Under the pieces are notes generated by a model, which was not told the origin of the DNA, did no database searches, and saw only the letters and a program-made list of their open reading frames with translations. A program made the translations under genes and the position numbers. 64,000 nt of DNA from Candidatus Nomurabacteria bacterium (GTDB lineage: Bacteria > Patescibacteriota > Minisyncoccia > Phycocordibacterales > UBA9973), in the NCBI GenBank assembly GCA_963842815.1, contig CAWJHU010000001.1, forward strand, positions 12,866 through 76,865, written 5' to 3'. Of this stretch, positions 7,386-45,868 are shown piece by piece (the stretch's first letter is position 1; each line of letters starts with the position of its first letter).

Positions 7386-7404
7386 TTTCAGAACTAACCA
7401 AAGA

Positions 7405-18389: not shown

Positions 18390-18498
18390 AAAATTGCAAA
18401 CAATATTTTTGCCGGTACGGATTTTTTGAAGCTTAAAAAATCCTGAAATTGGCTCGCCGTCGCTCGCCAAACCCCTTAAAAACTTTGTTTGCAATTTT

Positions 18499-18996
18499 TT
18501 ATTTTATTTTTTCTATAGTAATTTCCGACTTAGGATCAAAAGCGTCCGGGTCCATTTTGAGGTGAGAAATATATTTTTCTTGAATAACGAAATCGCCTAA
18601 AAATTTCAGAAAATCTTCTCTTTTGTCTAACTCCCCTTTTTCTTCTAAATGTTCCAACGGGTGCGCCTCCGGAGTATATTCAAAATGCCCGCAAATTTCT
18701 CCGTCTTTGTAAACTCTTAAATGATATTGGTCCTGAAAGTCCGTTAATTTTCTCCAGCTTAAAACCTGGTCTTGGTCTATCCAGGCGATGAAGTGGTTGC
18801 CAAATCCCCATTTTGAATGGAGGTGCTGTTTCAGTTCTTCCAAAGTCCTGCCGGGAGCCAGCCAGCCGATATGATATTTCTGTCTCCCCTTTTTGTGCCA
18901 AATAAACCCAATTTTCAAAAGAAATTTTCGAACCGGCAAAAAGAAGCTATAAATAAAGTCCCAAGTTTTTTGTTTAAATTCATCCCAAAAATTCAT
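18499..18996 (-). CDS. Hypothetical protein
   Basis: 165-aa ORF convergent with the ATP-grasp gene. I recognise no motif. Confidence 0.4.
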   Translation of the reverse strand: MNFWDEFKQKTWDFIYSFFLPVRKFLLKIGFIWHKKGRQKYHIGWLAPGRTLEELKQHLHSKWGFGNHFIAWIDQDQVLSWRKLTDFQDQYHLRVYKDGEICGHFEYTPEAHPLEHLEEKGELDKREDFLKFLGDFVIQEKYISHLKMDPDAFDPKSEITIEKIK

Positions 18997-19814: not shown

Positions 19815-20432
19815 ATGAATTCTATATTCAATCTGGATTTGCCGATATTAATTAAGACTATCGGTTATTTGGGAATTTTCTTTTTCATCTTCGCCGAGTC
19901 CGGATTATTTTTCGGATTTTTCCTGCCGGGAGATTCGCTTTTATTTACAGCCGGACTGCTGGCTTCCCAGGGATATTTCAGCATCCCTATCTTGGTTTTA
20001 TTGGCTGTTTTGGGGGCTATTTTCGGCGACCAAATCGGATATTTATTCGGCAAAGAAGTCGGCCCAAAAATTTTCAACCGGAATGATTCATTTTACTTTA
20101 AAAAGAAACATGTCCTTGACGCAGAAAATTTTTATCAAAAATACGGCAAGAAAACCATTATTCTGGCGCGCTTCGTACCCATTGTCCGCACTTTCGTTCC
20201 TATTTTAGCCGGCGTGGGGAAAATGCATTATAAAACTTTTGTCGCTTACAATATTATCGGCGGAACTATTTGGGGAATGGGCATTACCTTGCTGGGATAT
20301 TTTCTGGGTCAAAAAATTCCCAATATAGATACCTATCTATTGCCCATAATATTATTGATAATAATCGTTTCTATCCTGCCAGGAATTTTTTCCTTTATTT
20401 GTGCTAAAATGAAGAAATGTACGAATCAATAA
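19815..20432 (+). CDS. DedA-family membrane protein
   Basis: 'GLFFGFFLPGDSLLFTAGLLASQG' DedA signature with multiple TM helices. Confidence 0.75.
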   Translation: MNSIFNLDLPILIKTIGYLGIFFFIFAESGLFFGFFLPGDSLLFTAGLLASQGYFSIPILVLLAVLGAIFGDQIGYLFGKEVGPKIFNRNDSFYFKKKHVLDAENFYQKYGKKTIILARFVPIVRTFVPILAGVGKMHYKTFVAYNIIGGTIWGMGITLLGYFLGQKIPNIDTYLLPIILLIIIVSILPGIFSFICAKMKKCTNQ

Positions 20433-23116: not shown

Positions 23117-23162
23117 TGCAACACTAGTATTATACTATTTTTTAAAAAAAAGAAATGCGAAA

Positions 23163-23390
23163 ATTTGCGGTGTATGTTGGACAAAGTTCGAAACTATTTC
23201 GAGCTAAATCCAAATGATTAAAGCTAATGTGTACGCTCGACGTTATTCTTAATTTTAATATATCCACTACGCTCGGCTAATATGCTAATTCAAATGGACT
23301 CGGAAAATGGAAACAAATATTTTGGGGATTAGGATTTCCATTTTCCTCGACTGTATCTTTTGGCGAGATTCCGAATTCTGCCCGCAGGAG
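23163..23390. repeat. Left arm of an ~228-bp near-perfect inverted repeat (partner at 31588-31816)
   Basis: Direct comparison: the reverse complement of 31588-31816 matches 23163-23390 with only a handful of mismatches. Each arm also contains an internal 12-bp hairpin (ggaaaatggaaa...tttccattttcc). Confidence 0.9.
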
Positions 23391-23439
23391 AAATTCAAGT
23401 TCAAAATTCAAAACATTGTCTCGGGCAATTATACCATTT

Positions 23440-23880
23440 TTCTATTTTGGTGGTTACGCAAAGTTTTTGAGGTGCACCCTCGGCATCCGCCTCGGGCGTT
23501 TCCGCTAGGGCTACGAGTGCCTAGATGCCTATGAGCGGGCAAGCAAAATAACCGAACGGCTCAAATACCAGGAAATGAGCCGTTCACTAGATTGCCCGCA
23601 ACTTCTTGGGGAGAGGAAGTTTCCTCTCCCCGGGTCGGGCTCTCCTCGATTACGAGGAGTCTGCCCTCGCCATCCCCACTCTACGTTTTTCAATATTATG
23701 TTTGGTGTGTAGCTTTCGCTGTGAAGATTAGTATTTCAATTCGGGTCAGGCACTCGTCCTTTAGTCATGGACACCCTAGCGGAAATGCCCGAGGCGAAAT
23801 ACTCGTGCTTGCCCCGAGTTTTGCGATTACGCAAAACTCTACCCACCCGTGCGTGCACGCAAAATCACTCCCTTATTTTT
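23440..23880. other. GC-rich, densely self-complementary ~440-bp non-coding region (candidate structured RNA or recombination site)
   Basis: Visibly GC-rich compared with its surroundings. It contains a perfect hairpin ggggagagga-agtt-tcctctcccc, ctcctcg-atta-cgaggag, ttgcg-atta-cgcaa, and a long-range pairing of 23480-23518 with 23746-23795. No convincing ORF is present. Confidence 0.5.
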
Positions 23881-23883
23881 AAA

Positions 23884-24507
23884 TTAAATTCTTGAATACG
23901 AAACCGCATGTCCAGTTTTTCCAACTTGCTTGATTTTATTTTCTTTTTCCAAGATTGAAAGATATCGAGTTGCAGTTGCGTCAGAAATATGCAAAAACTT
24001 TTCTACTTCATCATTCGTGATTTTAGATTTTTTCAGAAACATTGCCATAACTTTATCCAACTTTTTCCTTTTTCGGAATTGAATTGCATTTTTTGCTTTA
24101 TTTAATAATTCAAGAACTTTGTTTTTATTTGGAATTATTACGGGAACAGGTTCAGGTTTGATCGGCTCAGGTTCAGAAGCCAACGGCTCATTTACTGGTA
24201 TTTGAGCCGTTCGGGTTTCAGAAGTTTGCACAGGTTTAGAAATTCCTTCAGCTTTTCCGCCTTCGGCGGGTAATTCTTCGGGTTTTGCTTCTTCAGGGCT
24301 AGGGGTAGAAATAGGCTCATTTTGAGGATTGTCATTATTAAGGGAAACGGGTATATCTGCGTTTTTAGGGGATTCTGGGGCTTCAGGGGGCATATTTGAG
24401 GGTTCAGAACCCTTTGCATCTATGGGTATATCAGCCATAGGCTCTTGAGGGCTTATTGGAATAGAGTTTTCTTCTGAAATTGGGTTTTGGGTAGTTTCAT
24501 CGGGCAT
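23884..24507 (-). CDS. Putative DNA-binding protein with a Pro/Glu-rich disordered N-terminus and a C-terminal winged helix
   Basis: The C-terminus 'ITNDEVEKFLHISDATATRYLSILEKENKIKQVGKTGHAVSY' is wHTH-like. Confidence 0.45.
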   Translation of the reverse strand: MPDETTQNPISEENSIPISPQEPMADIPIDAKGSEPSNMPPEAPESPKNADIPVSLNNDNPQNEPISTPSPEEAKPEELPAEGGKAEGISKPVQTSETRTAQIPVNEPLASEPEPIKPEPVPVIIPNKNKVLELLNKAKNAIQFRKRKKLDKVMAMFLKKSKITNDEVEKFLHISDATATRYLSILEKENKIKQVGKTGHAVSYSRI

Positions 24508-24535
24508 AACATGTAAATTATATACTATATCTAAA

Positions 24536-25339
24536 TTAAGTGTTTCGTTTTAAGAAATAAATTAAAACAAAAATCGCCAGCATTATCAAAACTATCGTTC
24601 CGCCAGTAGAAAGATTTAGATAAAAAGATAAAAATATTCCGGATATAACCGAGAACAAAGAAACAAGTTCTGCATATAGAATAGTTTGAGTAAAACTTTT
24701 TCGAAGTTGTAAGGCAGTAACTACTGGTATGACAATTAGGGCGGCGATAAGTAAAACTCCGACAATAGGAATTGAAAGAGAGACAGTCACAGCAGAAAGT
24801 ACAATTAAAATTGTATTAATAAATTTCGTCGGTATACCGCTTACTTTAGCCGCATCTTCATCAAAAGTAACAAATACAAGTTCCTTGTAAAATGCAAAAA
24901 GTGTCCCAATGACGATAATCGCTAGAATTAAAATCGTATAAACGTCATTTTGAGTAACTGTAACGATGCTTCCAAAAAGATAATTAAATAGATTGGTATT
25001 AAAACCATGAGCCAAGCTAAGTATTACTATTGCTAATGCGAGACTCCCAGAAAGGAAAAGAGCCAAAGCAGATTCACCGTAAACTCTTTTAGAATTTCTT
25101 AATTTTTCAATTCCCAAAGAAGCGACAACTGTTACTCCAAGCGCAGTTAAGATTGGATTTAAACCAAAAAGCAAAGCGATGGCAATGCCTGCGAGCGATA
25201 CGTGAGAAAGCGTATCAGCTATCAATGAATAGCGTCTTAATACCAAAAAAATACCGATCAAAGGAGCTATCACAGCTATTATTATCCCTGCTTCTAGTCC
25301 TCTTATGACAAATCCATATTGAAAAATATTTAAAAGCAT
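24536..25339 (-). CDS. znuB: Zinc/manganese ABC transporter permease (ZnuB-like, ABC-3 family)
   Basis: 267-aa polytopic membrane protein adjacent to the ATPase and the TroA-like binding protein. Confidence 0.75.
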   Translation of the reverse strand: MLLNIFQYGFVIRGLEAGIIIAVIAPLIGIFLVLRRYSLIADTLSHVSLAGIAIALLFGLNPILTALGVTVVASLGIEKLRNSKRVYGESALALFLSGSLALAIVILSLAHGFNTNLFNYLFGSIVTVTQNDVYTILILAIIVIGTLFAFYKELVFVTFDEDAAKVSGIPTKFINTILIVLSAVTVSLSIPIVGVLLIAALIVIPVVTALQLRKSFTQTILYAELVSLFSVISGIFLSFYLNLSTGGTIVLIMLAIFVLIYFLKRNT

Positions 25340-26107
25340 TTAATTATGGCGATGGTTAGTGATAATTTTTATGTCTTGACCGGGAATATTTTCAAGTTCA
25401 CTTGATTTCAAAAATTCTTCCACCGATGTATGAGAAACGAGGGTATAATCCACACAGGCAATATGCATTGCTTCTTTGATTATCCTATCTACATCATGAG
25501 TGACTAGAACTAAAGTCAAATCAAGCTCTTTGTTTAATTTTCTTAAGATATCATAAAAATCATCTTGAGATTTTTTATCAATTCCAGTTGTCGGTTCGTC
25601 TAAAAAAATTATTTCCGGTCGTCCTGCCAGAGCTCGAGCGATAAAGACGCGTTGCTGTTGACCTCCTGACAAATCGCCGATTAAACGATCTTTGAAATTC
25701 CACATCTCTACTTGTCTCAGCGACTCTTCTATAATTTTTTTATCTTGTTTGTCAGTGCCGTGGAGTAATCCCTTTTTTGCGAATCTTGCCATAGCCACGA
25801 CTTCTTTCACTGTGGCGGGGAAATTTACATCAAAATTAGTCGCTTTTTGTGGAACATAGCCGATTTTTGACCAATCCTTGAATTTTTTAATATCTTCTCC
25901 AAATATTTTAATTGAACCTTTGACTGGATTTAAAAGTCCAAGAATTATTTTTATCAAAGTTGTTTTTCCTGCGCCGTTCGGACCGACAATACCAATATAA
26001 TCTCCCTTGTGTATATCAAGGGTAATATTGCTCAACACCTCATCGTTATTATAACTAAATGAGATATCTTTAATTTCTATTATGTTTTTTGAGTGATCTA
26101 CTTGCAT
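25340..26107 (-). CDS. znuC: Zinc ABC transporter ATP-binding protein (ZnuC-like)
   Basis: Walker A 'GPNGAGKTT', ABC signature 'LSGGQQQR', and Walker B 'IIFLDEP'. Confidence 0.85.
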   Translation of the reverse strand: MQVDHSKNIIEIKDISFSYNNDEVLSNITLDIHKGDYIGIVGPNGAGKTTLIKIILGLLNPVKGSIKIFGEDIKKFKDWSKIGYVPQKATNFDVNFPATVKEVVAMARFAKKGLLHGTDKQDKKIIEESLRQVEMWNFKDRLIGDLSGGQQQRVFIARALAGRPEIIFLDEPTTGIDKKSQDDFYDILRKLNKELDLTLVLVTHDVDRIIKEAMHIACVDYTLVSHTSVEEFLKSSELENIPGQDIKIITNHRHN

Positions 26108-27018
26108 TGTAGCGCTATTCTTAAATTAGTTAAATTATTTTGCATTTCAGTTAAATAATTATTACCTTGCGCTATTTCGTCATTACTCAAACCCTCTATC
26201 GGATTTAACACTAGAGTTTTTGCTCCGACTTCTGTTGCGATAGTATCAGCCAATTTTGGACTAACTAAACTTTCAAAAAATATATATTTTACGTTATTGG
26301 CTTTGGCAAATTTTACAATATCTGCTAATTGTGCGGGTGATGGTTCGGCGTCAGGAGAAAGACCGGTGATTGATACTTGGTTAAGCCCATATGATGAAGA
26401 CAGATAACCAAAAGCGGCGTGAGAGGTGATAATATTTTTTTCCGAACAACTGCTTAATCCTTGTTTGTATTCTTTATCTAAATTATCCAATTTCGTTTTT
26501 AATGTATTTGTATTTGTTTTATAAAATTCCGTATTTACTGGATCAACTTGAACAAAACTTCCGGCAATTTTATCTACCATTTCTTTTGCAAGTTGTGGAC
26601 TCAACCAAACATGAGGATCAATAACATTATTTCCATTTTCTAGTACTTTTTGATTGGTTAAATTTTGTCCTGCGATTACTACAGTAGTTTTTTGAGGATC
26701 GATATTTTTCTGTATATTATCTCCCCAAGCTTCTAATCCTCCACCATTTAAAACAAGGAGTTTACTATTGTCTATTTGAGCTATATCTAAAGCAGTAGGC
26801 TCATAGTCGTGTGGTTCAGCCCCAGCGGGAGTTATATTCACCACATTTGCTTTATCTCCACCTATTTGGCTTGAAAAGAAATAGAGCGGATAAAAACTCG
26901 TTGTCACTTGTAGTTTATTTGACTGTGCTGTTGGTTTTTGTGCACTATTTATAATAAGAGTTAAAATACCAATAAAAACTACTCCCATTACTAAACCCAA
27001 TAAATATTTTTTATTCAT
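26098..27018 (-). CDS. znuA: Zinc ABC transporter substrate-binding protein (ZnuA/TroA-like)
   Basis: Signal/anchor N-terminus, metal-ligand His/Asp positions ('EPHDYEPT', 'DPHVWLSP'), and its position in the operon. Confidence 0.8.
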   Translation of the reverse strand: MNKKYLLGLVMGVVFIGILTLIINSAQKPTAQSNKLQVTTSFYPLYFFSSQIGGDKANVVNITPAGAEPHDYEPTALDIAQIDNSKLLVLNGGGLEAWGDNIQKNIDPQKTTVVIAGQNLTNQKVLENGNNVIDPHVWLSPQLAKEMVDKIAGSFVQVDPVNTEFYKTNTNTLKTKLDNLDKEYKQGLSSCSEKNIITSHAAFGYLSSSYGLNQVSITGLSPDAEPSPAQLADIVKFAKANNVKYIFFESLVSPKLADTIATEVGAKTLVLNPIEGLSNDEIAQGNNYLTEMQNNLTNLRIALQCK

Positions 27019-27021
27019 AAA

Positions 27022-27459
27022 TTATTTTTTAACACATGATTTACATAAACCAAAAAAATCAAAAGTATGATTTGTGATTTCTGCAAAATCGGGCGTTTGT
27101 TTTAATACTTTGCTAATAATATTTTTTGAACCGCATTCAATAAAATCCTTCACCTTGTCGCATTTGATACACACGATATGGTGATGATGATTTCTTGAGG
27201 CAAGTTCGTACCATCTTTTATTGCCTGTTAATTGTATTTCTAAAATAATACCTTCTTTCTTTAATAGATTAAGCTCACGATATAGAGTAGTTTTGTTTGC
27301 AGATATTTTATTCTTTTTGAGTAACTTCTGAAAATCAGAAGCGGAAAGTGGCTTATCGTTTTTACTAAGCGAATTCAAAACAAAATTTCGCATAGCGCTA
27401 AATCTGTGTCCTCTTTTTTTTAGTTTCAATAAAATGCCCTTTTCTTCAGCCATGCACAC
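27022..27459 (-). CDS. zur: Fur-family metalloregulator, probably Zur
   Basis: N-terminal wHTH and a C-terminal 'HHHHIVCIKC...C' metal site. It lies immediately upstream of znuABC. Confidence 0.75.
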   Translation of the reverse strand: MCMAEEKGILLKLKKRGHRFSAMRNFVLNSLSKNDKPLSASDFQKLLKKNKISANKTTLYRELNLLKKEGIILEIQLTGNKRWYELASRNHHHHIVCIKCDKVKDFIECGSKNIISKVLKQTPDFAEITNHTFDFFGLCKSCVKK

Positions 27460-27465
27460 ATCTTA

Positions 27466-27490
27466 ACGCAACCGTGTTGCGTTTGTCAAG
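27466..27490. promoter_or_regulatory. Putative Zur/Fur operator palindrome (aacgcaac-cgt-gttgcgtt) just upstream of zur
   Basis: Perfect 8-3-8 inverted repeat, 7-30 nt upstream of the zur start on the transcribed side. Confidence 0.5.
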
Positions 27491-27580
27491 AACATATTTT
27501 TATTATTTCAAAATTAATCTTTGAGGAAAATCGGCATTTCTGCATGTTTAGAGTATATCAAAAGTTAAATTAAATAAAAA

Positions 27581-27612
27581 AATAAAGAGGCAACATTCGT
27601 TGCCTCTTTATT
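27581..27612. terminator. Bidirectional intrinsic terminator hairpin (aaagaggcaac-attcg-ttgcctcttt)
   Basis: 11-bp perfect stem flanked by an A-run and a T-run. It lies downstream of the minus-strand 66-aa gene. Confidence 0.6.
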
Positions 27613-27639
27613 TCGCTATTCCGTTTTCCAGAACCTGTT

Positions 27640-27840
27640 TCATTTTCTGTTATAAGGGGATTGGTTCGTTGGATGAAGTGAGATATTTTTCTCACTTGCC
27701 TTTGAGTATACAGCTTCGGGAGTTCTACCTATCTTTAAACTAATGACCCCCGTAGGAGTATTTTTACTCGCAAGCGTTCTTAATTGCTGAACATCTTCTC
27801 TGGTCCAATGTTTGCCAGAATTTCGATTATATTTAGCCAT
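27640..27840 (-). CDS. Small hypothetical protein (66 aa)
   Basis: ORF followed by a terminator. I recognise no motif. Confidence 0.4.
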   Translation of the reverse strand: MAKYNRNSGKHWTREDVQQLRTLASKNTPTGVISLKIGRTPEAVYSKASEKNISLHPTNQSPYNRK

Positions 27841-27874
27841 AAATTACGAAGAATAGTTAATAATAAACAAATTG

Positions 27875-28168
27875 CTATGCTCTACATTCGGGCAATTTTA
27901 GAAGATTGTCCGTTTTCACATCATCAGGTATGGTTTTTACATACTTAGTGCCAAGCGCAGTAATTCCCGTAATAAGGTATGCCTTATTACCATACGCGTC
28001 TTTAACATATGCTTGATTTCCAGCTTTCACGAAATCATATATTTCAAGGCGAGTCGATTTTCCTGTTTCTTGAGAATTTTCATTGATCCACCCTAAGTCT
28101 GTAATTGCAGTATAGGGATTTTCATGATTACCCCCGTCTTTGTTGATACAAATAATTTTAACAGCCAT
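27875..28168 (-). CDS. DUF3892-like small protein
   Basis: 'ICINKDGG...GWINE...KAYLIT...DDVKTDNLLKLPEC' matches my recollection of the DUF3892 pattern. Confidence 0.45.
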   Translation of the reverse strand: MAVKIICINKDGGNHENPYTAITDLGWINENSQETGKSTRLEIYDFVKAGNQAYVKDAYGNKAYLITGITALGTKYVKTIPDDVKTDNLLKLPECRA

Positions 28169-28275
28169 AATTTTTTATTTGGTTACGTTATTGTTTTTAT
28201 AATCTCGACCTTTGTAAATAATTCACTTATTTATCTCTCCAAACATATTTCTTCCCAAAAGGAGCTATTGGTTTT

Positions 28276-28404
28276 ATGGGTCTGATTTGCGGAATTTTGG
28301 GTATTGGTGGTATTCTTGGGATGCGTGGAATTTTCGGTATACTAGGAATTTTTGGAAAAAACTTTGGGTCTTTTGTTAATCTCCATGGCATAAAGTTTAT
28401 TTAA
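28276..28404 (+). CDS. Unannotated small ORF: 42-aa Gly-zipper hydrophobic peptide (MGLICGILGIGGILGMRGIFGILGIFGKNFGSFVNLHGIKFI)
   Basis: AGGAG sits 8 nt upstream of the ATG. The peptide is a strongly hydrophobic GxxxG-repeat. It lies in the lexA-like/DUF3892 intergenic region and is too short for the ORF track. Confidence 0.45.
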   Translation: MGLICGILGIGGILGMRGIFGILGIFGKNFGSFVNLHGIKFI

Positions 28405-28556
28405 AATGTTTATTTATAATGATAATTCTGTCGAGTTCATAGTTTTTAAAAAACTATCAGAATTATTGCCCATTTCAGAATCTATTGATAATCAAAGATA
28501 TAAACTGTGGATAACTAGGGCTTGTTTAGGTTATCTTTAGGTAGTATACTCTAAAT

Positions 28557-29186
28557 ATGTATAAAAAGTCAAGTATTATAGGAATAGGAAAACCATCAAA
28601 ACGTCAAACTGAGATACTTCAGTTTGCTAGGGAGTATCGAAGAGAAAATGGGTACTCTCCAGTCCTTTCGGAAATGGCCAAACATTTTAATGTGTCAATT
28701 CCAACAATCCATCAGCATATTGATTCTTTGCGAAAGAAAAATCTCCTTACTGTTGAAAAAGGAAAAAAAAGATCTATCCAAGAACTTCGCAACCCACAAC
28801 TGCTAGTTGCTGAAATTCCTTTAATGGGGATTATTTCTGCCGGAGGTCCTATTGAAGCAATTAGAGATCCAAAACCAATTGAAGTTCCAAAAAATATGCT
28901 TTCAAGTGGTTCAAATTATTATGCATTAAAAGTTTCTGGACGGAGTATGATTGAGGAAGGAATATCAGATGGAGATATTGTAATAATACGAGAACAGTCA
29001 ACAGTCGATGATGGAGAAAAGGCTGTTGCGTATATGCCAGATAGAAATGAGGTTACATTAAAAAAAATTTATCGAGAAAAAGATCGCATAAAACTTGTTC
29101 CGGCGAATAAATACATGGAACCTTTTTATGAAACAAATGTTGAAATACAAGGAAAGGTTATGGGAGTACTTAGGAAAGAAATTTAA
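28557..29186 (+). CDS. LexA/CI-like autocleaving repressor (HTH + S24 peptidase domain)
   Basis: N-terminal wHTH, and a C-terminal S24 fold with Ser in 'VSGRSMIEEG' and Lys in 'TLKKIYR'. Confidence 0.75.
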   Translation: MYKKSSIIGIGKPSKRQTEILQFAREYRRENGYSPVLSEMAKHFNVSIPTIHQHIDSLRKKNLLTVEKGKKRSIQELRNPQLLVAEIPLMGIISAGGPIEAIRDPKPIEVPKNMLSSGSNYYALKVSGRSMIEEGISDGDIVIIREQSTVDDGEKAVAYMPDRNEVTLKKIYREKDRIKLVPANKYMEPFYETNVEIQGKVMGVLRKEI

Positions 29187-29205
29187 TAAATGTTAAAATA
29201 ATTTT

Positions 29206-30780
29206 ATGTCATTAGTATCAATACCAGAAGCATCAAAATGGGCATCAGATTTTCTTGAAAAAGAAATTTTACCGACAAATATTTCTTATCTTGTTCAATA
29301 TGGAAAAGTAAAAAAACATGGAGAAAATGGCTCCACAATGATTGATTTAAGAGACTTGAAAAAATACTATGATACATATAATGGCAAGCGAGAAGTAAGT
29401 TGGAAAAAAAGTTTAGGTAATGACTTAAACTGGACACTCTCTTTTGATAATTTACGAGAGAAAGATACAACCAAACATGTTCACCGTCTCCATCCATATA
29501 AAGGGAAATATATTCCTCAACTTGTTGAATATTTTATTGATAGTCATACTGATGATTTCAAAAAAGAAGTTTATTTCAAAACTGGAGATATTGTTCTTGA
29601 TCCATTCTTGGGGTCAGGGACAACAATTATTCAATCTTTAGAAATGGGAATTCATTCTGTCGGTATAGATGTTTCTGAATTTAATTGTATGATTTCGAGC
29701 TGTAAGGCTACTCTTTATAACGATGAATATTTACAAAAAGCTATAAAAAGATTAATAGCCTCACTTGATACTTTTGAGCATGACAACAAAATTCAAGATT
29801 TTGAAACTGAACTTTTAGCTGAGCTTGCCAAGTTTAATCTAGTTAATTTTCCAGGATATGATTTTAAATATAAAATTAATCAGGGAAGCTTTAATGAAAG
29901 TAAATTTGCCATTGAAAGAGAAAAAGAATTTTTACTAATTTATCAAAAATTACTTAAAAAATATTCAATAAAAATAAAACAAGATAAAACATCGTCTTTT
30001 CTTGATATGTGGTTTGTAGAAAATGTACGTCGTGAGATTGACCATGTTTTTGAAACAATAAAGCAAGAAAAAGATATAAAAACAAAAAAGATTCTCGCAC
30101 TTATTTTAAGTAGAACGATAAGATCATGCCGAGCTACTACTCATAGTGATTTAGCAACTCTTAAAGAACCACAAATTACGACTTATTATTGTTATAAACA
30201 TAAAAAAATTTGTAAACCTATTTTTTCAATATCAAGTATGCTTAATCGCTATGCCCTTGATACTTTAAATAGGATTAAGGAATTTAATAAATTACGCAAA
30301 CCAGTTCACTATTCAGTATTGGCTGGTGATTCAAGAACAATAAATATTTTTGAAAAAGTAGAAAAAAATAATCCAGAATTTTCAAAAATTCTTAAAAAAG
30401 AAAAAATAGCAGGTATTTTTTGTTCACCCCCTTACGTTGGTCAAATTGATTATCATGAACAACATGCTTATGCTTATGATCTTTTAGGGTTTAAAAGAAA
30501 AGATGAATTAGAGATAGGTCCTCTTTATAAAGGACAAGGGATAGAAGCTAGAAAATCTTATGTGGAAGGTATTTCGGACGTGTTAAATAATTGTAAAAAA
30601 TATCTAAAAAAAGATTTTGATATTTTTCTTGTGGCGAATGATAAATTTAATTTATACCCAGAAATTGCTAAAAATTCAGGTATGAAAATAGTAAATCAAT
30701 TTAAAAGACCAGTGTTAAATCGGACGGAAAGAGATCGAAACCCGTATTCCGAAATTATTTTTCATTTTAAATCAATTTAA
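29206..30780 (+). CDS. DNA N6-adenine/N4-cytosine methyltransferase (alpha-group order: motif I ... TRD ... motif IV)
   Basis: Motif I 'VLDPFLGSGTTI' and motif IV 'FCSPPYVG', with a long TRD between them. Confidence 0.75.
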   Translation: MSLVSIPEASKWASDFLEKEILPTNISYLVQYGKVKKHGENGSTMIDLRDLKKYYDTYNGKREVSWKKSLGNDLNWTLSFDNLREKDTTKHVHRLHPYKGKYIPQLVEYFIDSHTDDFKKEVYFKTGDIVLDPFLGSGTTIIQSLEMGIHSVGIDVSEFNCMISSCKATLYNDEYLQKAIKRLIASLDTFEHDNKIQDFETELLAELAKFNLVNFPGYDFKYKINQGSFNESKFAIEREKEFLLIYQKLLKKYSIKIKQDKTSSFLDMWFVENVRREIDHVFETIKQEKDIKTKKILALILSRTIRSCRATTHSDLATLKEPQITTYYCYKHKKICKPIFSISSMLNRYALDTLNRIKEFNKLRKPVHYSVLAGDSRTINIFEKVEKNNPEFSKILKKEKIAGIFCSPPYVGQIDYHEQHAYAYDLLGFKRKDELEIGPLYKGQGIEARKSYVEGISDVLNNCKKYLKKDFDIFLVANDKFNLYPEIAKNSGMKIVNQFKRPVLNRTERDRNPYSEIIFHFKSI

Positions 30781-30783
30781 TTT

Positions 30784-31566
30784 ATGGCTTTGTCTAAAGA
30801 ACAAATAAAGAATGTTGAGGATGTTTTAAAAGCAAGTTTACGTAATAAGTTTCAAAACTATAGTCCAGAACCAGCATCAATGCCTTTTCATACTAGATTA
30901 TTAGGAAAAGACAGACTCGCTTTGTATTCCTTTATTCATTCATTGAATACGAATTTTGGTACAAGTATTTTTGAGCCAGTAGGACTTGCTTTGGCACAAA
31001 AAAGTTTTAAATTAGCAACTTCACAAGCAACAGCAGGAGATCAAATTAGTGACGAAGCACAGAAAGAAATTCAAAAGATTATAGATGGTCTTAATACAGC
31101 AACAAGTTTGCCAAATAAAAAAGAAGAAATCGAAAGAATAAGAAAAGTTTGTCAAAAAGGACAAATGATAAAAGTTAAACCAACAAAAGTTGACTTAATG
31201 TTTGAATCAAAAGAAGGTGCATATTTTTTATTTGATATTAAAACAGCAAAACCAAATGCTGGTGGATTTAAAGAATTTAAACGCACACTTTTGGAGTGGG
31301 TTGCTGTAATTTTAGCTAAAAATCCAAATGCAGATGTGAATACTTTTATTGCTATTCCATATAATCCTTACGAGCCAGAGCCATATACTCGTTGGACAAT
31401 GCGTGGAATGCTTGATTTAGAAAACGAACTCAAGGTAGCAGATGAATTTTGGGATTTTCTTGGTGGTAAAAATACATATAAAGATTTACTTGATTGTTTT
31501 GAAAGAGTGGGCATTGAATTAAGAGAAGAAATTGATAATTATTTCAAACGTTTCAATAAAAAATAG
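30784..31566 (+). CDS. Putative type II restriction endonuclease (cognate to the adjacent methyltransferase)
   Basis: Immediately downstream of the MTase and roughly 260 aa. The family is not confidently recognised. Confidence 0.45.
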   Translation: MALSKEQIKNVEDVLKASLRNKFQNYSPEPASMPFHTRLLGKDRLALYSFIHSLNTNFGTSIFEPVGLALAQKSFKLATSQATAGDQISDEAQKEIQKIIDGLNTATSLPNKKEEIERIRKVCQKGQMIKVKPTKVDLMFESKEGAYFLFDIKTAKPNAGGFKEFKRTLLEWVAVILAKNPNADVNTFIAIPYNPYEPEPYTRWTMRGMLDLENELKVADEFWDFLGGKNTYKDLLDCFERVGIELREEIDNYFKRFNKK

Positions 31567-31587
31567 CCCGCATTCCTCCCCAAACCC

Positions 31588-31816
31588 CTCCTGCGGGCAG
31601 AATTTGAAATCTCGCCAAAAGACACAGCCGAGGAAAATGGAAATCCTAATCCCCAAAATATTTGTTTCCATTTTCCGAGTCCATTTGAATTAGCATATTA
31701 GCCGAGCGTAGTGGATATATTAAAATTAAGAATAACGTCGAGCGTACACATTAGCTTTAATCATTTGGATTTAGCTCGAAATAGTTTCGAACTTTGTCCA
31801 ACATACACCGCAAATT
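31588..31816. repeat. Right arm of the ~228-bp inverted repeat (partner at 23163-23390)
   Basis: See the left arm. Confidence 0.9.
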
Positions 31817-31832
31817 CTGGGTTAGAGCATTC

Positions 31833-31927
31833 CCGCCAAAAAATGCGTCGGCGCGAAGCGCCGACGATGTGGGCGAATCCGCACCAAACCCAAACCCCGC
31901 CAGGATTTTCCACGCTCCGCGTGGCTC
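31833..31927. repeat. Left arm of the ~95-bp inverted repeat flanking the recombinase gene (partner at 33365-33459)
   Basis: The reverse complement of 31833-31927 is about 90% identical to 33365-33459. Both arms translate to a similar EPRGAWKILAGFGFG...SSALRADAFFGG peptide. Confidence 0.85.
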
Positions 31928-31960
31928 CTCGTTGCCAATGCAAAACACAAGTCGGTAATA

Positions 31961-33535
31961 TTGAACATCATGAATAATCAAACCAAAAAGTTTTTCATAT
32001 ATACTCGCAAGTCCACAGACGACAAAGACAGACAAGTCCGCAGTATTTCCGATCAACTTTCTGAATTAAAGGAATTAGCATTGAAAGGACAAATTGATGT
32101 TGTGGATGTCTTTGTCGAAAAACAGACAGCCAAAATACCAGGCCGTCCTGTTTTTAACGAAATGATGGAGAGAATGGAGAAAGGCGAAGCACAAGGTATT
32201 TTGGCGTGGCATCCGGACAGACTTGCGAGAAACTCGGTAGATGGCGGAAAGATCATCTACCTCGTTGATACAGGGATAATAAAAGATTTGAAATTCTCAA
32301 CTTTTTGGTTTGACCCCACACCGCAAGGAAAGTTCATGCTATCGATAGCATTTTCGCAATCCAAGTATTATGTGGACAATTTGTCGGAGAATATTAAGCG
32401 AGGACACAGGAACAAACTAAAAGAAGGAATATGGCCTCGAAACGCTCCCATGGGATATTTGAATGATAGCGAGAAAAAAATTATCATTCCTGACCCAGAA
32501 CGCGCTCCATATATCAAGAAAGCGTTCGAGGCATATGCAAGCGGTAAATATACTCTCCGACAAATTAGAGATATGATAACCGGACTTGGATTGCGCTCAA
32601 TGAAAAGTGAAGAACTTTCCGTCTCCGTCATGCACGAAATATTAAGAAATCCAATTTTCTGCGGACTTATGCGGTATGGGGGTGAAATACACGAGGGTAA
32701 ACATGAACCGATTATCACAAAGAAACTTTTTGACCAATGTCAGGAAGTGATGATGCGAAAATCAAAACCAAAAGAAACAGGTTTCAAAACATATTTATAC
32801 CGAGGATTTTTCCGTTGCGGAGAATGTGGTTGCTTCATTACTACAGAAACACAAAAAGGTCATAATTACCTCCGTTGTACTAAACGGAAAAATCCTTGTG
32901 CTCAAAAATATGTTCGTGAAGAAATCATCACTTCCCAGATTAAGGAAAATATACAAAAAATTTCTTTGCCGCTCGATTGGGCAAAATGGATGATTGAAGA
33001 AAACAAAAAGGATCAATCATCCGAAATCCAATCGAGCGAGATTTTTTCTCAATCGACCAAAGACGAAATTTCTCTTTTGGATTCTAAAATCGAGAAGCTG
33101 ATGAATGCGTATTTAGAGAACGCACTTTCACTAGAGGAATACAAGGAAAGTAAAAGTGCGTTAGTTAGCTCTAAACAGCTTCTCAAAGAGAAATTATTAA
33201 GTTTTGAGAAAAAATCTCATAATCGGTTCGAACTTACGGAAAAATTCCTAAAGGACAATATTACCAACGTGGAATTGGCAAACAAAAAAACAAATGAAGA
33301 AAATCTTCATTTGTTCCAAAAAGTCGGTTCGAACTTTAAAATTCATAATCGAACCGTACTTTTTGAGCCACGCGGAGCGTGGAAAATCTTGGCGGGATTT
33401 GGGTTTGGCGGGAATTCAGCCCAATCATCGGCGCTTCGCGCCGACGCATTTTTTGGCGGGGGTATTGATTTCAAATTGTTGCGGAGCCGGGCGGATTCGA
33501 ACCGCCGAGGGGTTTTGAAGCCCCTGCCTCTTTAG
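31961..33535 (+). CDS. Large serine recombinase (resolvase catalytic domain + recombinase domain + zinc ribbon)
   Basis: N-terminal 'FFIYTRKSTDDKDRQ..SISDQ' with the catalytic Ser, 'LAWHPDRLARN', and the zinc ribbon 'CGECGCF...LRCTKRK'. The last ~55 codons read through the inverted-repeat arm and antisense into tRNA-Ser. Confidence 0.85.
   Translation: MNIMNNQTKKFFIYTRKSTDDKDRQVRSISDQLSELKELALKGQIDVVDVFVEKQTAKIPGRPVFNEMMERMEKGEAQGILAWHPDRLARNSVDGGKIIYLVDTGIIKDLKFSTFWFDPTPQGKFMLSIAFSQSKYYVDNLSENIKRGHRNKLKEGIWPRNAPMGYLNDSEKKIIIPDPERAPYIKKAFEAYASGKYTLRQIRDMITGLGLRSMKSEELSVSVMHEILRNPIFCGLMRYGGEIHEGKHEPIITKKLFDQCQEVMMRKSKPKETGFKTYLYRGFFRCGECGCFITTETQKGHNYLRCTKRKNPCAQKYVREEIITSQIKENIQKISLPLDWAKWMIEENKKDQSSEIQSSEIFSQSTKDEISLLDSKIEKLMNAYLENALSLEEYKESKSALVSSKQLLKEKLLSFEKKSHNRFELTEKFLKDNITNVELANKKTNEENLHLFQKVGSNFKIHNRTVLFEPRGAWKILAGFGFGGNSAQSSALRADAFFGGGIDFKLLRSRADSNRRGVLKPLPL
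33365..33459. repeat. Right arm of the ~95-bp inverted repeat (inside the 3' end of the recombinase ORF)
   Basis: See 31833-31927. Confidence 0.85.
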
Positions 33536-33570
33536 CAAAGAGGTACGTTAGACCGCTCTGACACGGCTCC
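33482..33570 (-). tRNA. tRNA-Ser (anticodon GCU), type II
   Basis: Acceptor GGAGCCG/CGGCTCC, anticodon stem CCTCT/AGAGG with loop TTGCTAA, long variable arm, T-arm GGCGG-TTCGAAT-CCGCC. Confidence 0.8.
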
Positions 33571-33675: not shown

Positions 33676-33762
33676 TTGGAGAGATGGGTGAGCGGTTTAA
33701 ACCAACAGTTTACTAAACTGTCGTCCCCTTAAAAGGACCGCGAGTTCGAATCTCGCTCTCTC
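33676..33762 (+). tRNA. Type II (Ser-like) tRNA with an apparent anticodon ACU (atypical); possibly a variant or pseudo tRNA-Ser
   Basis: Acceptor GGAGAGA/TCTCTCC, 3-bp D stem, anticodon stem ACAGT/ACTGT with loop TTACTAA (U33, A34-C35-U36), long variable arm, T-arm GCGAG-TTCGAAT-CTCGC. Confidence 0.55.
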
Positions 33763-33765
33763 CGC

Positions 33766-45202: not shown

Positions 45203-45245
45203 ATTTTTATCTTAGCAAAATACATTTTAAAATACAACCTCATCC

Positions 45246-45315
45246 CCCGCCTTCTCCTGAAAGGAGAAGGGGTCAATTCCCTAGTTCCCCCTCTCCTTTC
45301 AGGAGAGGGTTGGGG
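45246..45315. repeat. Two adjacent inverted copies of the GC-rich palindromic element (ctcctgaaaggag core)
   Basis: 45255-45275 'ttctcctgaaaggagaagggg' and 45283-45318 'ccccctctcctttcaggagagggttggggtgaggtta'. The latter is the reverse complement of the ligA-embedded copy. Confidence 0.75.
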
Positions 45316-45338
45316 TGAGGTTATTGTATAATTGCTAT

Positions 45339-45728: not shown

Positions 45729-45868
45729 ATTCAGATTCCTTCTTTCCTCTTAGGAATTACTAATTAAACATTCCACTAGGTTCGGAGCATTGAAAATAAC
45801 CTCATTTTACAAGGAACTTTTTCCCTAGCATCTTAGGAATTATACATAAAGTTCGAACCTAATCGGTT

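What the first reader, a model, noticed from the sequence alone, without database searches (positions are those of the whole stretch)
23163..33570. Nested long inverted repeats framing an 8.4-kb accessory cargo plus a large serine recombinase next to tRNA-Ser
Two independent pairs of long inverted repeats are directly visible.

- An ~228-bp pair (23163-23390 and 31588-31816, only a few mismatches) brackets a cargo segment. The cargo carries zur-znuABC, a LexA/CI-like repressor module, and a methyltransferase/endonuclease pair.
- An ~95-bp pair (31833-31927 and 33365-33459) brackets the 524-aa serine recombinase gene. The recombinase 3' end reads antisense into tRNA-Ser(GCU).

Terminal inverted repeats of this length, a serine recombinase, and a tRNA boundary together look like either a site-specifically invertible segment or a tRNA-targeting integrative element. 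Neither classic Hin/Gin invertase systems (26-bp sites, small recombinase) nor standard phage integration (direct repeats) matches this arrangement.
Basis: partly seen in the sequence, partly recalled or inferred. Interest (0 to 1): 0.8.

Follow-up and report, generated by a model that had tools for sequence, protein, structure and literature searches.

The report
Serine-integrase island with mirrored attP
The two inverted-repeat pairs are real and mark a 10.3-kb mobile island that a large serine integrase inserted at the very 3' end of a tRNA-Ser gene; unusually, the island keeps a second, mirror-image copy of its own attachment site inside, a design shared by a large, apparently undescribed family of elements in Patescibacteria (CPR) genomes.

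Summary
Observation confirmed. The inverted-repeat arms are 23162-23390/31588-31816 (229 nt, 98%) and 31832-31927/33365-33460 (96 nt, 90%; really ~120 nt reaching a shared core).

They are not independent. Read in reverse, the internal block 31588-31927 is B'-GCGG-A, the joint a circularised element would have (attP). The outer arms are the two halves of a second attP, split by integration: attL is flank|GCGG|A at 23167, and attR is B'|GCGG|tRNA-Ser(GCU) at 33481.

- A close relative (L084) has the same flanking genes and an identical tRNA with no element, so it is an empty site.
- The same layout recurs in more than 50 Patescibacteria loci. B' abuts a tRNA 3' end in 50 (49 tRNA-Ser of any isoacceptor, 1 tRNA-Asp), and cargo is 0-8 kb, mostly restriction-modification or other defence genes.
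- Arms are about 99% identical within an element but 60-74% between elements.
- attP lies inside the integrase reading frame, so integration swaps the last ~17 residues.
- Rare loci show the internal site joined to a second tRNA-Ser, tandem arrays, or flipped modules.

Verdict: a tRNA-Ser-targeting large-serine-recombinase island, not a routine inversion switch. The mirrored internal attP and split integrase tail are a new variant. I found no description in six searches of the held paper library.

The parts
23167..23170 (+). attL core GCGG (the shared stretch with the internal site is AATTTGCGG, 23162-23170). This is the left boundary of the element.
   Evidence: Unrelated flank lies on the left and arm A on the right. 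The empty site L084 has the same flank joined directly to the tRNA.
23162..23390 (+). Arm A, the left arm of the 229-nt inverted repeat. After the core, its first ~55 nt encode the conserved integrase tail RCMLDKVRNYFELNPND* in the frame that would continue from B' in the circular form.
   Evidence: (outer 60 nt 93-96% identical in dozens of loci).
23469..23808 (.). Conserved, strongly structured non-coding region just inside arm A. Function unknown, no Rfam match.
23884..24507 (-). Gene for a 207-aa protein with a weak winged-helix match at its C-terminus. Conserved next to the structured region in L001, L003 and L135.
   Evidence: (Pfam matches below the curated cut-offs).
24536..27459 (-). 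Cargo: zinc-uptake ABC permease, ATPase and ZnuA-type binding protein (24536-27018), plus a Fur/Zur regulator (27022-27459).
   Evidence: In L003 the homologous operon lies outside the element.
27875..28168 (-). Cargo: DUF3892 protein.
28557..31566 (+). Cargo module: LexA/CI-like S24 repressor, N4/N6 DNA methyltransferase and TdeIII-type restriction endonuclease. GC content is 27-31% against about 40% in the flanks.
   Evidence: The same module sits in the same place and orientation in L052, L063 and L068.
31588..31816 (-). Arm A', the inverted copy of arm A.
31808..31811 (-). Core of the internal inverted attP-type site (CCGC on the + strand).
31812..31927 (-). Arm B, the inverted copy of the integrase 3' end. 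31812-31831 is the core-proximal patch that has diverged from B' here but is identical to the L001 type.
31932..31961 (+). Promoter-like site (TTGCCA-18-TAATAT) between arm B and the integrase start codon.
   Evidence: This is a consensus match only.
31970..33535 (+). Large serine recombinase gene (521 aa from the ATG; 524 aa from the TTG at 31961). Its last 17 codons are antisense tRNA sequence.
33365..33480 (+). Arm B', which is both the last ~40 codons of the integrase and the left half of attR. It contains the conserved GC hairpin at 33428-33444.
33481..33484 (+). attR core GCGG, the complement of tRNA positions C71-C72-G73-C74. This is the right boundary of the element.
33481..33570 (-). 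tRNA-Ser(GCU), the integration target. It is intact and identical to the gene at the empty site in L084.
33678..33765 (+). tRNA-Ser(ACU), an unoccupied second potential target. Its 3' end abuts the recG start codon.

Best explanation
Window 23167-33480 (10,314 bp) is an integrated mobile island. It belongs to a large Patescibacteria family whose only constant gene is a large serine recombinase (LSR).

Integration (inferred from the junctions)
- The LSR recombines an element site, attP = B'|GCGG|A, with a chromosomal site, attB = downstream flank|GCGG|tRNA.
- The 4-nt core is the end of the acceptor stem, the discriminator base and C74 of a tRNA-Ser gene.
- Integration leaves attL (flank|GCGG|A, 23167) and attR (B'|GCGG|tRNA-Ser(GCU), 33481).

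The internal mirrored site
- The element carries a second, intact attP-type site in inverted orientation (A'|CCGC|B, 31588-31927) between the cargo and the integrase gene.
The ~96-120-nt pair is B (internal site) against B' (attR side).
- In the free circle, which is inferred and not observed, the two sites would form a ~345-bp inverted repeat. That repeat would divide the circle into a cargo segment and an integrase segment.

Split integrase tail
- attP lies inside the integrase reading frame.
- In the attP configuration the protein ends in a conserved tail (RCxLDKVRxYFExNPxD).
- In the usual integrated state that tail is replaced by residues encoded by antisense tRNA.

Other steps
- The two copies of each arm are kept about 99% identical, probably by gene conversion. 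The mechanism is inferred.
- The internal site can recombine with other tRNA-Ser genes, and attL can receive a further element. This is shown by rare variant loci.
- Why the mirrored copy is kept is not established. My preferred guess is that it preserves an intact spare of the integrase 3' end plus attP. Stable integrants then carry a tail-swapped integrase convergent with the tRNA, while the rarer opposite arrangement restores a complete integrase downstream of the tRNA.
For: Anatomy in the window
- Searches show the junctions. The reverse complement of the internal block reads ...B'-AATTTGCGG-A. The left end reads unrelated flank-AATTTGCGG-A. The right end reads B'-TGCGG-antisense tRNA-Ser(GCU).

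Empty site
- L084 (recG 89% identical) has the same left-flank genes (19815-ORF homologue, pgi, PG-binding protein).
- About 110 nt further on it has an identical tRNA-Ser(GCU) with no element. L088 and L089 are also empty.

Generality
- Almost every related locus with enough DNA has a ~120-nt B/B' pair around the LSR.
- Those loci also have a 90-430-nt A/A' pair whose right arm abuts or overlaps B by 3-10 nt.
- In 18 loci the three junctions share only (T)(G)GCGG.
- B' is joined to a tRNA 3' end in 50 loci: Ser-GGA 18, GCU 15, UGA 10, CGA 5, ACU 4, Asp 1.

The LSR
- It has Resolvase, Recombinase and Zn_ribbon_recom domains.
- The 120 closest clusters of 7421 database hits are 73-93% identical to it.

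Activity of the sites
- L031: tRNA-Ser|B-LSR-B'|A.
- L036, L057 and L164: tRNA-Ser|B-LSR-B'|tRNA-Ser. L080 shows a tRNA-Ser|B joint.
- L017, L029+L030 and L172: tandem arrays with hybrid B2'|A1 joints.
- An identical LSR protein (P0034) has two different upstream joints in sister samples.
- The divergent tRNA-Ser(GCU)/(ACU) pair is found in both orientations, with breakpoints exactly at the tRNA 3' ends.

Concerted evolution
- Within an element the arms are 99.5% (A) and 99.2% (B) identical. Between elements they are 60.5% and 73.7%.

Coding tail
- 67 of 74 unique A ends stop after 16-20 codons in the LSR frame.
- They encode a conserved peptide, and the third codon position is the most variable.
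- At least 10 of the 120 closest LSR clusters end in that tail (regex count; P0013 looks like an eleventh by eye), and 70 end in tRNA-antisense tails.

Cargo
- Cargo varies and is mostly restriction-modification or other defence genes. A small XRE or LexA-like regulator lies next to A'.
Against: - No circular form, restored attB from the same population, or recombination activity was observed. Everything rests on comparative sequence.
- No recombination directionality factor was identified.
- If the two attP copies were equivalent, both integrase orientations should be about equally common. The observed ratio is 50 against 3 in the tally (plus L080), so an extra assumption is needed: selection, or instability of one state.
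- In the window the core-proximal 19 nt of B' differ from B, so this copy is a mosaic and may be impaired.
- The zinc-uptake operon inside the cargo is chromosomal in L003, so part of the 'cargo' may be captured host DNA.
- Twelve loci have B' next to something I could not classify.
Confidence: 0.85

Rival explanations
1. Invertible-segment switch. On this reading, the integrase's main job is to flip the 8.2-kb cargo segment, its own 1.4-kb gene segment, or both, between the inverted repeats. This would be phase variation, as in the Hin/Gin/Cin systems or shufflons.
For: - Each segment is bounded by near-identical inverted repeats, with the recombination core at their outer edge.
- Rare flipped states exist: the integrase module in L031 and the cargo in L079.
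- One LSR protein is found with two different upstream joints.
- The tRNA-Ser pair is inverted among relatives.
Against: - Orientation is almost fixed across independent genomes. B' faces the tRNA in 50 loci, against 3 in the tally plus L080.
- The XRE gene is in one orientation in 16 of 17 loci, and the LexA-MTase-REase module in 4 of 4.
- The element is absent from an otherwise syntenic relative. That shows insertion, not inversion.
- The recombinase is a 521-aa integrase-type protein, not a ~190-aa invertase.
Confidence: 0.12
2. The internal A'|B copy is a functionless relic. One ancestral inverted duplication of the attP region is simply kept alike by gene conversion, and the element behaves as an ordinary single-attP serine-integrase island.
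For: - Integration and tandem arrays need only one attP.
- No role for the second copy is demonstrated.
- The inner end of arm A varies from 28 to 433 nt, as expected for conversion tracts.
Against: - The copy is retained in essentially every member, across LSRs down to 55% identity, including relatives at tRNA-Ala and tmRNA.
- It is retained even in L078, where the cargo is reduced to nothing.
- Five loci show the internal site joined to a tRNA-Ser 3' end exactly at the core: L031, L036, L057, L080 and L164. So the site has been used.
Confidence: 0.15
3. Two separate transposons, each bounded by terminal inverted repeats. One would be an IS-like unit (B-LSR-B'). The other would be a non-autonomous cargo unit (A-cargo-A'), inserted side by side by a transposase-like reaction.
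For: - Each unit has its own inverted ends.
- The units occur apart: the LSR module sits between two tRNAs in L036 and L057, and orphan A' ends occur in L098, L116 and L163.
Against: - There are no target-site duplications.
- The ends are halves of one site whose two sides are A and B, and the joints follow an attP x attB grammar.
- B' and the start of A are integrase coding sequence.
- Two sites in inverted orientation cannot excise the segment between them by conservative site-specific recombination (established knowledge).
Confidence: 0.04
4. Assembly artefact. The repeats would come from mis-joined or collapsed contigs.
For: Many related contigs break at these repeats.
Against: - The arms are 98% and 90% identical, not 100%.
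- The same architecture occurs in more than 50 assemblies made with different assemblers and samples.
- Contigs breaking at an inverted repeat longer than the k-mer is the expected behaviour.
Confidence: 0.01

Closest known systems
Serine-integrase (large serine recombinase) prophages and islands, e.g. phiC31, Bxb1, A118, SPbeta SprA/YokA
   Same: - Same three-domain recombinase. One search gives the domains, and one search gives weak sequence matches to SPbeta YokA (9dxh) and A118 integrase (4kis).
- Integration leaves only a very short shared core and no long direct repeats.
- The integrase gene sits next to one end of the element.
   Different: - The target is the last 4 nt of tRNA-Ser genes of any anticodon.
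- attP lies inside the integrase reading frame, so the protein's last ~17 residues depend on the integration state.
- The element holds a second, inverted attP-type copy. I know of no natural serine-integrase element with that feature.
- No phage genes are present, and IMG/VR has no relatives.
SSV1-type integrases of archaeal fuselloviruses (attP inside the int gene, which is partitioned on integration into a tRNA gene)
   Same: attP is within the integrase ORF, the target is a tRNA gene, and integration changes the integrase coding sequence. The SSV1 side rests on established knowledge; the element's side.
   Different: SSV1 integrase is a tyrosine recombinase whose gene is cut into two large parts. 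Here only the last ~17 codons of a serine recombinase are exchanged, and an intact spare copy is kept in inverted orientation.
Yeast 2-micron plasmid (FLP/FRT within 599-bp inverted repeats)
   Same: The inferred circular form would be a circle divided into two unique segments by a long inverted repeat. Each copy of the repeat contains the recombinase's site, and the recombinase gene lies in one segment.
   Different: - FLP is a tyrosine recombinase that flips the segments for copy-number amplification of a replicating plasmid.
- No replication genes are seen here.
- Orientation is nearly fixed in integrated copies, and the site is used for chromosomal integration.
Hin/Gin/Cin DNA invertase systems
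   Same: A serine recombinase gene lies inside or next to a segment bounded by inverted recombination sites.
   Different: Those invertases are small (~190 aa), use 26-bp sites plus an enhancer, and show frequent flipping of a fixed chromosomal or phage segment. Here the protein is integrase-type, the arms are 120-430 nt, there is an empty site in a relative, and the orientation is nearly fixed.
Engineered recombinase-mediated cassette exchange with inverted attP pairs (e.g. MiMIC landing sites; papers listed)
   Same: Two inverted serine-integrase sites flank a cassette, which forbids excision between them and allows exchange or inversion with a partner carrying two inverted attB sites. The divergent tRNA-Ser pair is such a partner.
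   Different: That is a laboratory design. A natural counterpart has not been described, to my knowledge. Here it is only inferred from rearranged loci.
tRNA-targeting genomic islands with tyrosine integrases (Islander-type)
   Same: They integrate at the 3' part of a tRNA gene and carry accessory or defence cargo.
   Different: Those duplicate tens of nt of the tRNA as direct repeats. An example lies next door in L001 (66-nt repeat). This element shares only 4-9 nt and uses a serine recombinase.

Membership tests
Large serine recombinase (serine integrase) integrative element | Recombinase with an N-terminal resolvase catalytic domain, a recombinase domain and a zinc-ribbon domain, about 450-700 aa | tested here: met
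   PF00239 (residues 12-157), PF07508 (179-264) and PF13408 (279-331) in a 521/524-aa protein. The motif YTRKST, with the presumed catalytic serine, is read directly.
Large serine recombinase (serine integrase) integrative element | attL, attR and attP share only a short core with attB, and no long direct repeats flank the element | tested here: met
   only (AATTT)GCGG is shared in the window, and (T)(G)GCGG in 18 other loci.
Large serine recombinase (serine integrase) integrative element | Presence/absence polymorphism: an empty target site in relatives | tested here: met
   L084 has the same flanking genes and an identical tRNA-Ser(GCU) without the element. L088 and L089 are also empty.
Large serine recombinase (serine integrase) integrative element | Circular excised form and catalysed attP x attB recombination | not testable with these tools
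   No reads and no biochemistry were available. Direct B'|A joints exist, but where resolved they are in tandem arrays (L017, L029, L172) or in the flipped L031 state.
Large serine recombinase (serine integrase) integrative element | A recombination directionality factor for excision | not tested
   No candidate was recognised. The only widely shared cargo gene is a small XRE HTH protein.
Hin/Gin-type DNA inversion system | Small (~190 aa) serine invertase with a C-terminal HTH | tested here: not met
   a 521-aa integrase-type protein.
Hin/Gin-type DNA inversion system | Both orientations of the segment occur commonly | tested here: not met
   Across loci, the integrase module is 50 to 3 in the tally plus L080, and cargo markers are 20 to 1. 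Within-population heterogeneity could not be tested.
Transposon or IS bounded by terminal inverted repeats | The inverted repeats are the termini of the mobile unit, and target-site duplications flank it | tested here: not met
   The mobile unit defined by the empty site runs from A to B', and these are not repeats of each other. No duplication occurs beyond the 4-9-nt core.
Tyrosine-integrase tRNA island (Islander type) | Tyrosine integrase and a direct repeat of the tRNA 3' part at the far end | tested here: not met
   None of the ten proteins scanned in and beside the element matched Phage_integrase, and no direct repeat of the tRNA is present.
2-micron-like inverted-repeat plasmid | Autonomous replication and frequent flipping between two isomers | not testable with these tools
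   No replication gene was recognised in any cargo examined. Isomer ratios need reads.

The most novel reading that the evidence does not exclude
The mirrored internal attP together with the split integrase tail would be a built-in state switch and rearrangement device.

- Integration through the site at the integrase 3' end would give a tail-swapped, quiescent integrase that converges with the tRNA.
- The internal copy would keep an intact 3' end plus attP. Flipping the module, or using the other site, would then restore a complete integrase driven from the tRNA.
- The same two inverted sites would act with the several tRNA-Ser genes as a natural cassette-exchange and inversion system.
- That system would reshuffle small CPR chromosomes and swap defence cargo.

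A further possibility is that the inverted arms let the element fold on itself as single-stranded DNA after natural transformation. That would also explain the ~99% arm identity without flipping.
Probability: 0.3. Interest if true: 0.8.

Novelty: new variant of a known kind. Interest (0 to 1): 0.66.

Why it matters
- It defines what may be the main integrative-element family of Patescibacteria (CPR), a huge uncultured group for which almost no mobile elements are characterised. The database holds 7421 recombinase hits at E <= 1e-10, and the 120 closest clusters are all 73-93% identical to this integrase.
- It shows that these elements ferry restriction-modification and other defence genes.
- It gives exact att sites for a very conserved serine integrase that targets a universal sequence, the 3' end of tRNA-Ser. 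That is of practical interest for genome engineering.
- It presents two features not known for serine integrases: an attP inside the integrase gene, and a conserved inverted spare copy of attP. Both make testable predictions about how directionality and stability are controlled without a known accessory factor.
- It offers a concrete cause for inversions at tRNA-Ser genes in these genomes.

Tried and rejected
- Rfam scans of the window and of both arm regions found only tRNAs and tmRNA. Nothing matched the arms or the structured region.
- Exact-sequence look-ups of the window's integrase, from either start codon, found nothing on record.
- An IMG/VR scan with the integrase found no relatives. 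I dropped the idea of a prophage or phage satellite.
- A promoter/terminator scan of arm A and the structured region found nothing. The hairpin plus T-run in B' is terminator-like in the window, but the T-run is not conserved in other loci. I do not claim a terminator.
- The strand of the structured region could not be decided from folding energy. The z-scores are -9.8 and -9.3.
- I considered that arm A mimics the tRNA T-arm, since both contain TTCGAA. The spacing from the core differs by about 5 nt, so I keep only the functional observation that attL can receive another element.
- The contig of P0004, a 91%-identical integrase with the complete tail that might be a circular form, has no DNA on file.
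- An Rfam scan of loci where B' abuts a non-tRNA sequence (L008, L027, L045, L065, L003) gave no RNA gene at those joints.
- A model in which a single-stranded dumbbell integrates directly was rejected. It predicts identical inverted chromosome copies on both sides, which are not seen; L036 and L057 have different tRNA-Ser genes on the two sides.
- Six literature searches found no description of this element. Absence from this library is not proof of novelty.

Full report
**1. Observation**

The repeat finder reports two inverted-repeat pairs in the region.
- Arms 23162-23390 and 31588-31816: 229 nt, 98% complementary, 8197 nt apart.
- Arms 31832-31927 and 33365-33460: 96 nt, 90% complementary, 1437 nt apart.

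They are the two longest inverted repeats in the 64-kb window, and neither arm has further copies there.

ARAGORN finds tRNA-Ser(GCU) at 33481-33570(-) and a tRNA-Ser called with anticodon ACU at 33678-33765(+).

Pfam confirms the gene content.
- A weak winged-helix match at 23884-24507(-).
- Zinc-uptake ABC genes and a Fur/Zur regulator at 24536-27459(-).
- DUF3892 at 27875-28168(-).
- A LexA-like S24 repressor at 28557-29186(+).
- An N6_N4 methyltransferase at 29206-30780(+).
- A TdeIII-type endonuclease at 30784-31566(+).
- A large serine recombinase (LSR; Resolvase + Recombinase + Zn_ribbon_recom) at 31961/31970-33535(+). Its last codons are antisense tRNA.

The restriction-modification part has 27-31% GC, against about 40% in the flanks.

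**2. The two pairs are one duplicated site**

A' and B are only 15 nt apart. Read in reverse complement, the internal block 31588-31927 is B'-like sequence, then AATTTGCGG, then A. That is the joint that would form if the right end of the region were ligated to its left end.
- The left end reads unrelated flank-AATTTGCGG-A. The GCGG is at 23167-23170.
- The right end reads B'-TGCGG-AGCCGGGCGGATTCGAACC..., which is the antisense of the tRNA 3' end. The GCGG is at 33481-33484, the complement of C71-C72-G73-C74.
- The '15-nt spacer' and the modest 90% identity arise because the 19 nt of B' next to the core (33461-33479) differ from the internal copy. The internal copy is identical to that of the nearest relative, L001.

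**3. Related loci**

The LSR has 7421 database hits at E <= 1e-10. The 120 closest clusters are all 73-93% identical, and those that carry a name are labelled Patescibacteria.

I fetched 3 loci by exact protein and 80 by a scan of GTDB genomes. Most are Patescibacteria MAGs: Nomura-, Paceibacter-, Sacchari-, Morani-, Doudna-, Shapiro-, Uhr-, Kaiser- and Peribacteria. A few records carry other taxon labels, which I take to be misassigned bins.

Self-comparison of every locus shows the same layout almost everywhere.
- A ~120-nt B/B' pair lies around the LSR, with a ~1400-nt gap. It is usually 97-100% identical.
- Wherever upstream DNA is present, there is an A/A' pair of 90-430 nt whose right arm abuts or overlaps B by 3-10 nt.
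- The cargo between A and A' ranges from nothing to 8.2 kb. In L078, two 28-nt A ends lie back to back as a perfect palindrome.

Many contigs start or stop at these repeats. That is expected for an inverted repeat longer than the assembler's k-mer.

**4. Junction anatomy and target**

In 18 loci with all three joints, the internal site (read in reverse), the right end and the left end share only (T)(G)GCGG.
- To the right of the core at the right end is always the antisense 3' end of a tRNA.
- To the left of the core at the left end is unrelated flank.

A tally over 83 loci plus the window gives these counts.
- B' is joined to a tRNA 3' end in 50: Ser-GGA 18, GCU 15, UGA 10, CGA 5, ACU 4, Asp 1.
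- B' is joined to an A arm in 2, and to unclassified or degenerate sequence in 12.
- The upstream arm B is joined to A' in 52 and to a tRNA-Ser 3' end in 3. L080 adds a fourth such case.

This is the grammar of conservative site-specific recombination: attP (B'|core|A) x attB (flank|core|tRNA) gives attL + attR. The crossover lies within the last four nucleotides of the tRNA gene, so the tRNA stays intact.

**5. Empty site**

A metagenome scan with the neighbouring recG gave 80 more loci.

L084 (recG 89% identical) has the same left-flank genes as the window: the homologue of ORF 19815-20432, pgi, and the peptidoglycan-binding protein. About 110 nt further on it has a tRNA-Ser(GCU) identical in sequence to the window's, and no element.
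- L084 joint: ...ttcattgcaa-AT-rich-|GGCGG|AGCCGGGCGG.
- Window joint...ttcattgcaa-AT-rich-|GCGG|TGTATG (arm A).

L088 and L089 are also empty. The window's element is therefore a 10,314-bp insertion, 23167-33480.

**6. Evidence that the sites are used in other ways**

- L031 has tRNA-Ser(+)|B-LSR-B'|A-cargo. The integrase module is in the opposite orientation to the tRNA.
- L036 and L057 have a tRNA-Ser on both sides of B-LSR-B'.
- P0034, one exact LSR protein, lies behind A'|B in L165 and L166. In L164 it lies behind tRNA-Ser(GGA)|B*, with the same downstream tRNA-Ser(UGA)-RuvX.
- L017, L029+L030 and L172 are tandem arrays with hybrid B2'|A1 joints, so attL can serve as a target for a further element.
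- Orphan A' ends joined to non-B flank occur upstream of recG in L098, L108, L116 and L163.
- Among recG-anchored relatives, the divergent tRNA-Ser(GCU)/tRNA-Ser(ACU) pair lies in both orientations between pgi and recG. By my count from the table the split is about 24 against 14. The breakpoints are exactly at the tRNA 3' ends...TCCGC|ATGGAA, the recG start.

These are the products expected if the internal inverted site, or two inverted attB sites, recombine. They are rare states, not the rule.

**7. Not a routine flip-flop**

Orientation is nearly fixed across independent genomes.
- B' faces the tRNA in 50 loci, against 3 in the tally plus L080.
- The small XRE gene next to A' is on the same strand in 16 of 17 loci. 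L079 is the exception.
- The LexA-methyltransferase-TdeIII module, shared at 77-79% with L052, L063 and L068, is in the same place and orientation in 4 of 4.

**8. Concerted evolution**

The two copies of an arm within one element are a median of 99.5% (A) and 99.2% (B) identical. The same arms between elements are 60.5% and 73.7% identical.

Something homogenises the copies without flipping the segments. Gene conversion is the simplest candidate. Mismatch correction in a folded single strand is another. Neither is shown.

**9. attP is inside the integrase gene**

B' is the last ~40 codons of the LSR. In the B'|core|A configuration the frame continues TTG CGG TGT ATG TTG GAC AAA GTT CGA AAC TAT TTC GAG CTA AAT CCA AAT GAT TAA. 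This reads ...L R C M L D K V R N Y F E L N P N D stop.

Over 74 unique A ends:
- 67 stop after 16-20 codons in this frame.
- The peptide RCxLDKVRxYFExNPxD is conserved, with synonymous changes.
- Entropy by codon position is 0.64, 0.49 and 0.90.

This explains why the outer 60 nt of A are 93-96% identical in loci whose LSR DNA is only ~74% identical.

Among the 120 closest LSR clusters, 70 end in tRNA-antisense tails and at least 10 in the complete tail by the regex count. The latter include P0004, which is 91% identical to the window's protein; P0013 looks like an eleventh by eye.

In the window the tail is ...RSRADSNRRGVLKPLPL, so this copy is in the tail-swapped state. The internal inverted copy preserves an intact version of the 3' end. 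I infer, but cannot show, that the tail matters for activity or directionality. I also infer that the strong orientation bias reflects greater stability of the tail-swapped, tRNA-convergent state.

**10. Cargo and other parts**

Cargo across the family is mainly defence.
- TdeIII with an N4/N6 methyltransferase.
- HpaII with a C5 methyltransferase-RadC fusion.
- Type III res/mod genes.
- A Dam-like methyltransferase.
- An AAA_15 ATPase.
- A ThiF-family protein.

No replication, transfer or phage genes were seen, and IMG/VR has no relatives.

The zinc-uptake operon is inside the window's element but outside the element in L003, so it may be captured host DNA.

A promoter-like site lies between B and the integrase start.

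Just inside arm A lies a conserved, GC-rich, strongly structured non-coding region at 23469-23808.
- It is present in L001, L003, L011, L018, L073 and L135.
- 14 of 87 predicted pairs show compensatory changes.
- Folding z-scores are near -9.5 on both strands.
- It has no Rfam match.

Its role is unknown.

**11. Comparison with known systems, and novelty**

By its protein and its junctions, this is a member of the serine-integrase integrative elements (membership table). It differs in four respects.
- The target is the last nucleotides of tRNA-Ser genes of any isoacceptor. Relatives sit at tRNA-Ala (L054), tRNA-Asp (L006) and the tmRNA 3' end (L011, L028).
- attP lies within the integrase ORF. 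This recalls SSV1-type tyrosine integrases but is, to my knowledge, not described for serine integrases.
- The intact inverted second attP is universal in the family. It recalls the 2-micron plasmid's inverted FRT repeats and engineered inverted-attP cassette-exchange designs.
- The LSR is extremely conserved across deep CPR lineages.

Six full-text searches found no description. That is not proof of novelty.

I rate it a new variant of a known kind, of real interest to people working on mobile elements, CPR biology and integrase tools.

**12. What is shown and what is inferred**

Shown by sequence comparison:
- the repeats;
- the junction grammar;
- the tRNA target;
- the empty site;
- the family-wide architecture;
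- concerted evolution of the arms;
- the coding tail;
- the rare alternative joints.

Inferred:
- catalysis by the LSR at the GCGG core;
- the circular form with two inverted attP sites;
- gene conversion as the homogenising mechanism;
- any function of the internal copy or of the tail swap.

Noticed in passing
window 23469-23808 (also L001 1550-1880, L003 2352-2684, L011 4188-4493, L018 34-344, L073 7800-8189, L135 16093-16432): A conserved, GC-rich non-coding region of about 340 nt lies just inside arm A. It is closed by a 23-bp long-range stem and has several internal hairpins. 14 of 87 predicted pairs show compensatory changes, and folding z-scores are about -9.5 on both strands. It has no Rfam match. 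It could be a new structured RNA or a single-strand DNA signal. In L135 it sits beside the winged-helix gene with no integrase or A end nearby.
   Followed up: partly
window 23552-23584 and 24182-24214: The palindromic hairpin motif AACGGCTCA-N12-TGAGCCGTT occurs twice, 600 nt apart in opposite orientation. One copy is in the structured region and the other is inside the winged-helix ORF. L001 has the same pair (1629-1664 and 2458-2493). These may be operator sites.
   Followed up: no
window 33678-33765; same gene in L002, L004, L011, L013, L015, L022 and many recG loci: ARAGORN calls this tRNA-Ser gene with anticodon ACU (A at position 34). That is unusual for bacteria, but the gene is conserved next to tRNA-Ser(GCU) in these genomes. 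Its 3' end abuts the recG start codon (…TCCGC|ATGGAA).
   Followed up: no
L086, L095, L097, L131, L150, L155 versus window, L089, L140 (just upstream of recG): The divergent tRNA-Ser(GCU)/tRNA-Ser(ACU) pair is found in both orientations between pgi and recG in closely related genomes. By my count from the table the split is about 24 against 14 loci. Breakpoints are exactly at the two tRNA 3' ends. This is a site-specific inversion between two potential attB cores.
   Followed up: partly
L011 19393-21095 and L028 9812-11516; L054 11632-14994; L006 1734-1924: Related integrase elements with the same paired inverted arms abut other RNA genes: the 3' end of tmRNA (L011, L028), tRNA-Ala(GGC) (L054) and tRNA-Asp (L006). 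The window's own tmRNA (38976-39374) has no such neighbour.
   Followed up: partly
L001 11537-11602 and 18789-18854: A second island of about 7.2 kb, with a tyrosine integrase (17768-18661), lies on the other side of the same tRNA-Ser(GCU). It is bounded by a perfect 66-nt direct repeat of the tRNA's 5' part.
   Followed up: no
L003 8828-8950 and L027 8735-8856: LOOT RNA (Rfam RF03000, 82-88 bits) is present in both loci. In L003 it lies inside the element's cargo.
   Followed up: no
window 7161-9154: Three to four tandem copies of a ~640-nt unit, 93-100% identical. Not examined.
   Followed up: no
window 2856-2900, 45237-45323, 45685-45731, 46310-46346: A dispersed ~37-44-nt palindromic repeat (CCCCCTCTCCTTTCAGGAGAGGGTTGGGGTGAGGTTA) occurs in both orientations, resembling a small REP or MITE-type element.
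   Followed up: no
window 21813-21884: A perfect tandem duplication of 36 nt lies inside the gene for the peptidoglycan-binding surface protein, in its Thr/Pro-rich linker.
   Followed up: no
window 33428-33460 and 31846-31866; all related loci: Two GC-rich palindromes, CCACGCGGAGCGTGG and GTCGGCGCTTCGCGCCGAC, are conserved at the nucleotide level inside the B arms across the family. This holds even though the arms are coding and the sequence between the palindromes varies. The first marks the fixed inner boundary of the repeat. They may be protein-binding sites.
   Followed up: no
L098 2428, L108 113 and 244, L116 263, L163 69: Orphan A' ends are joined at the core to non-B flank upstream of recG, with no tRNA-Ser between them and recG. 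They look like cargo modules left behind after the integrase module and tRNAs were moved away.
   Followed up: no
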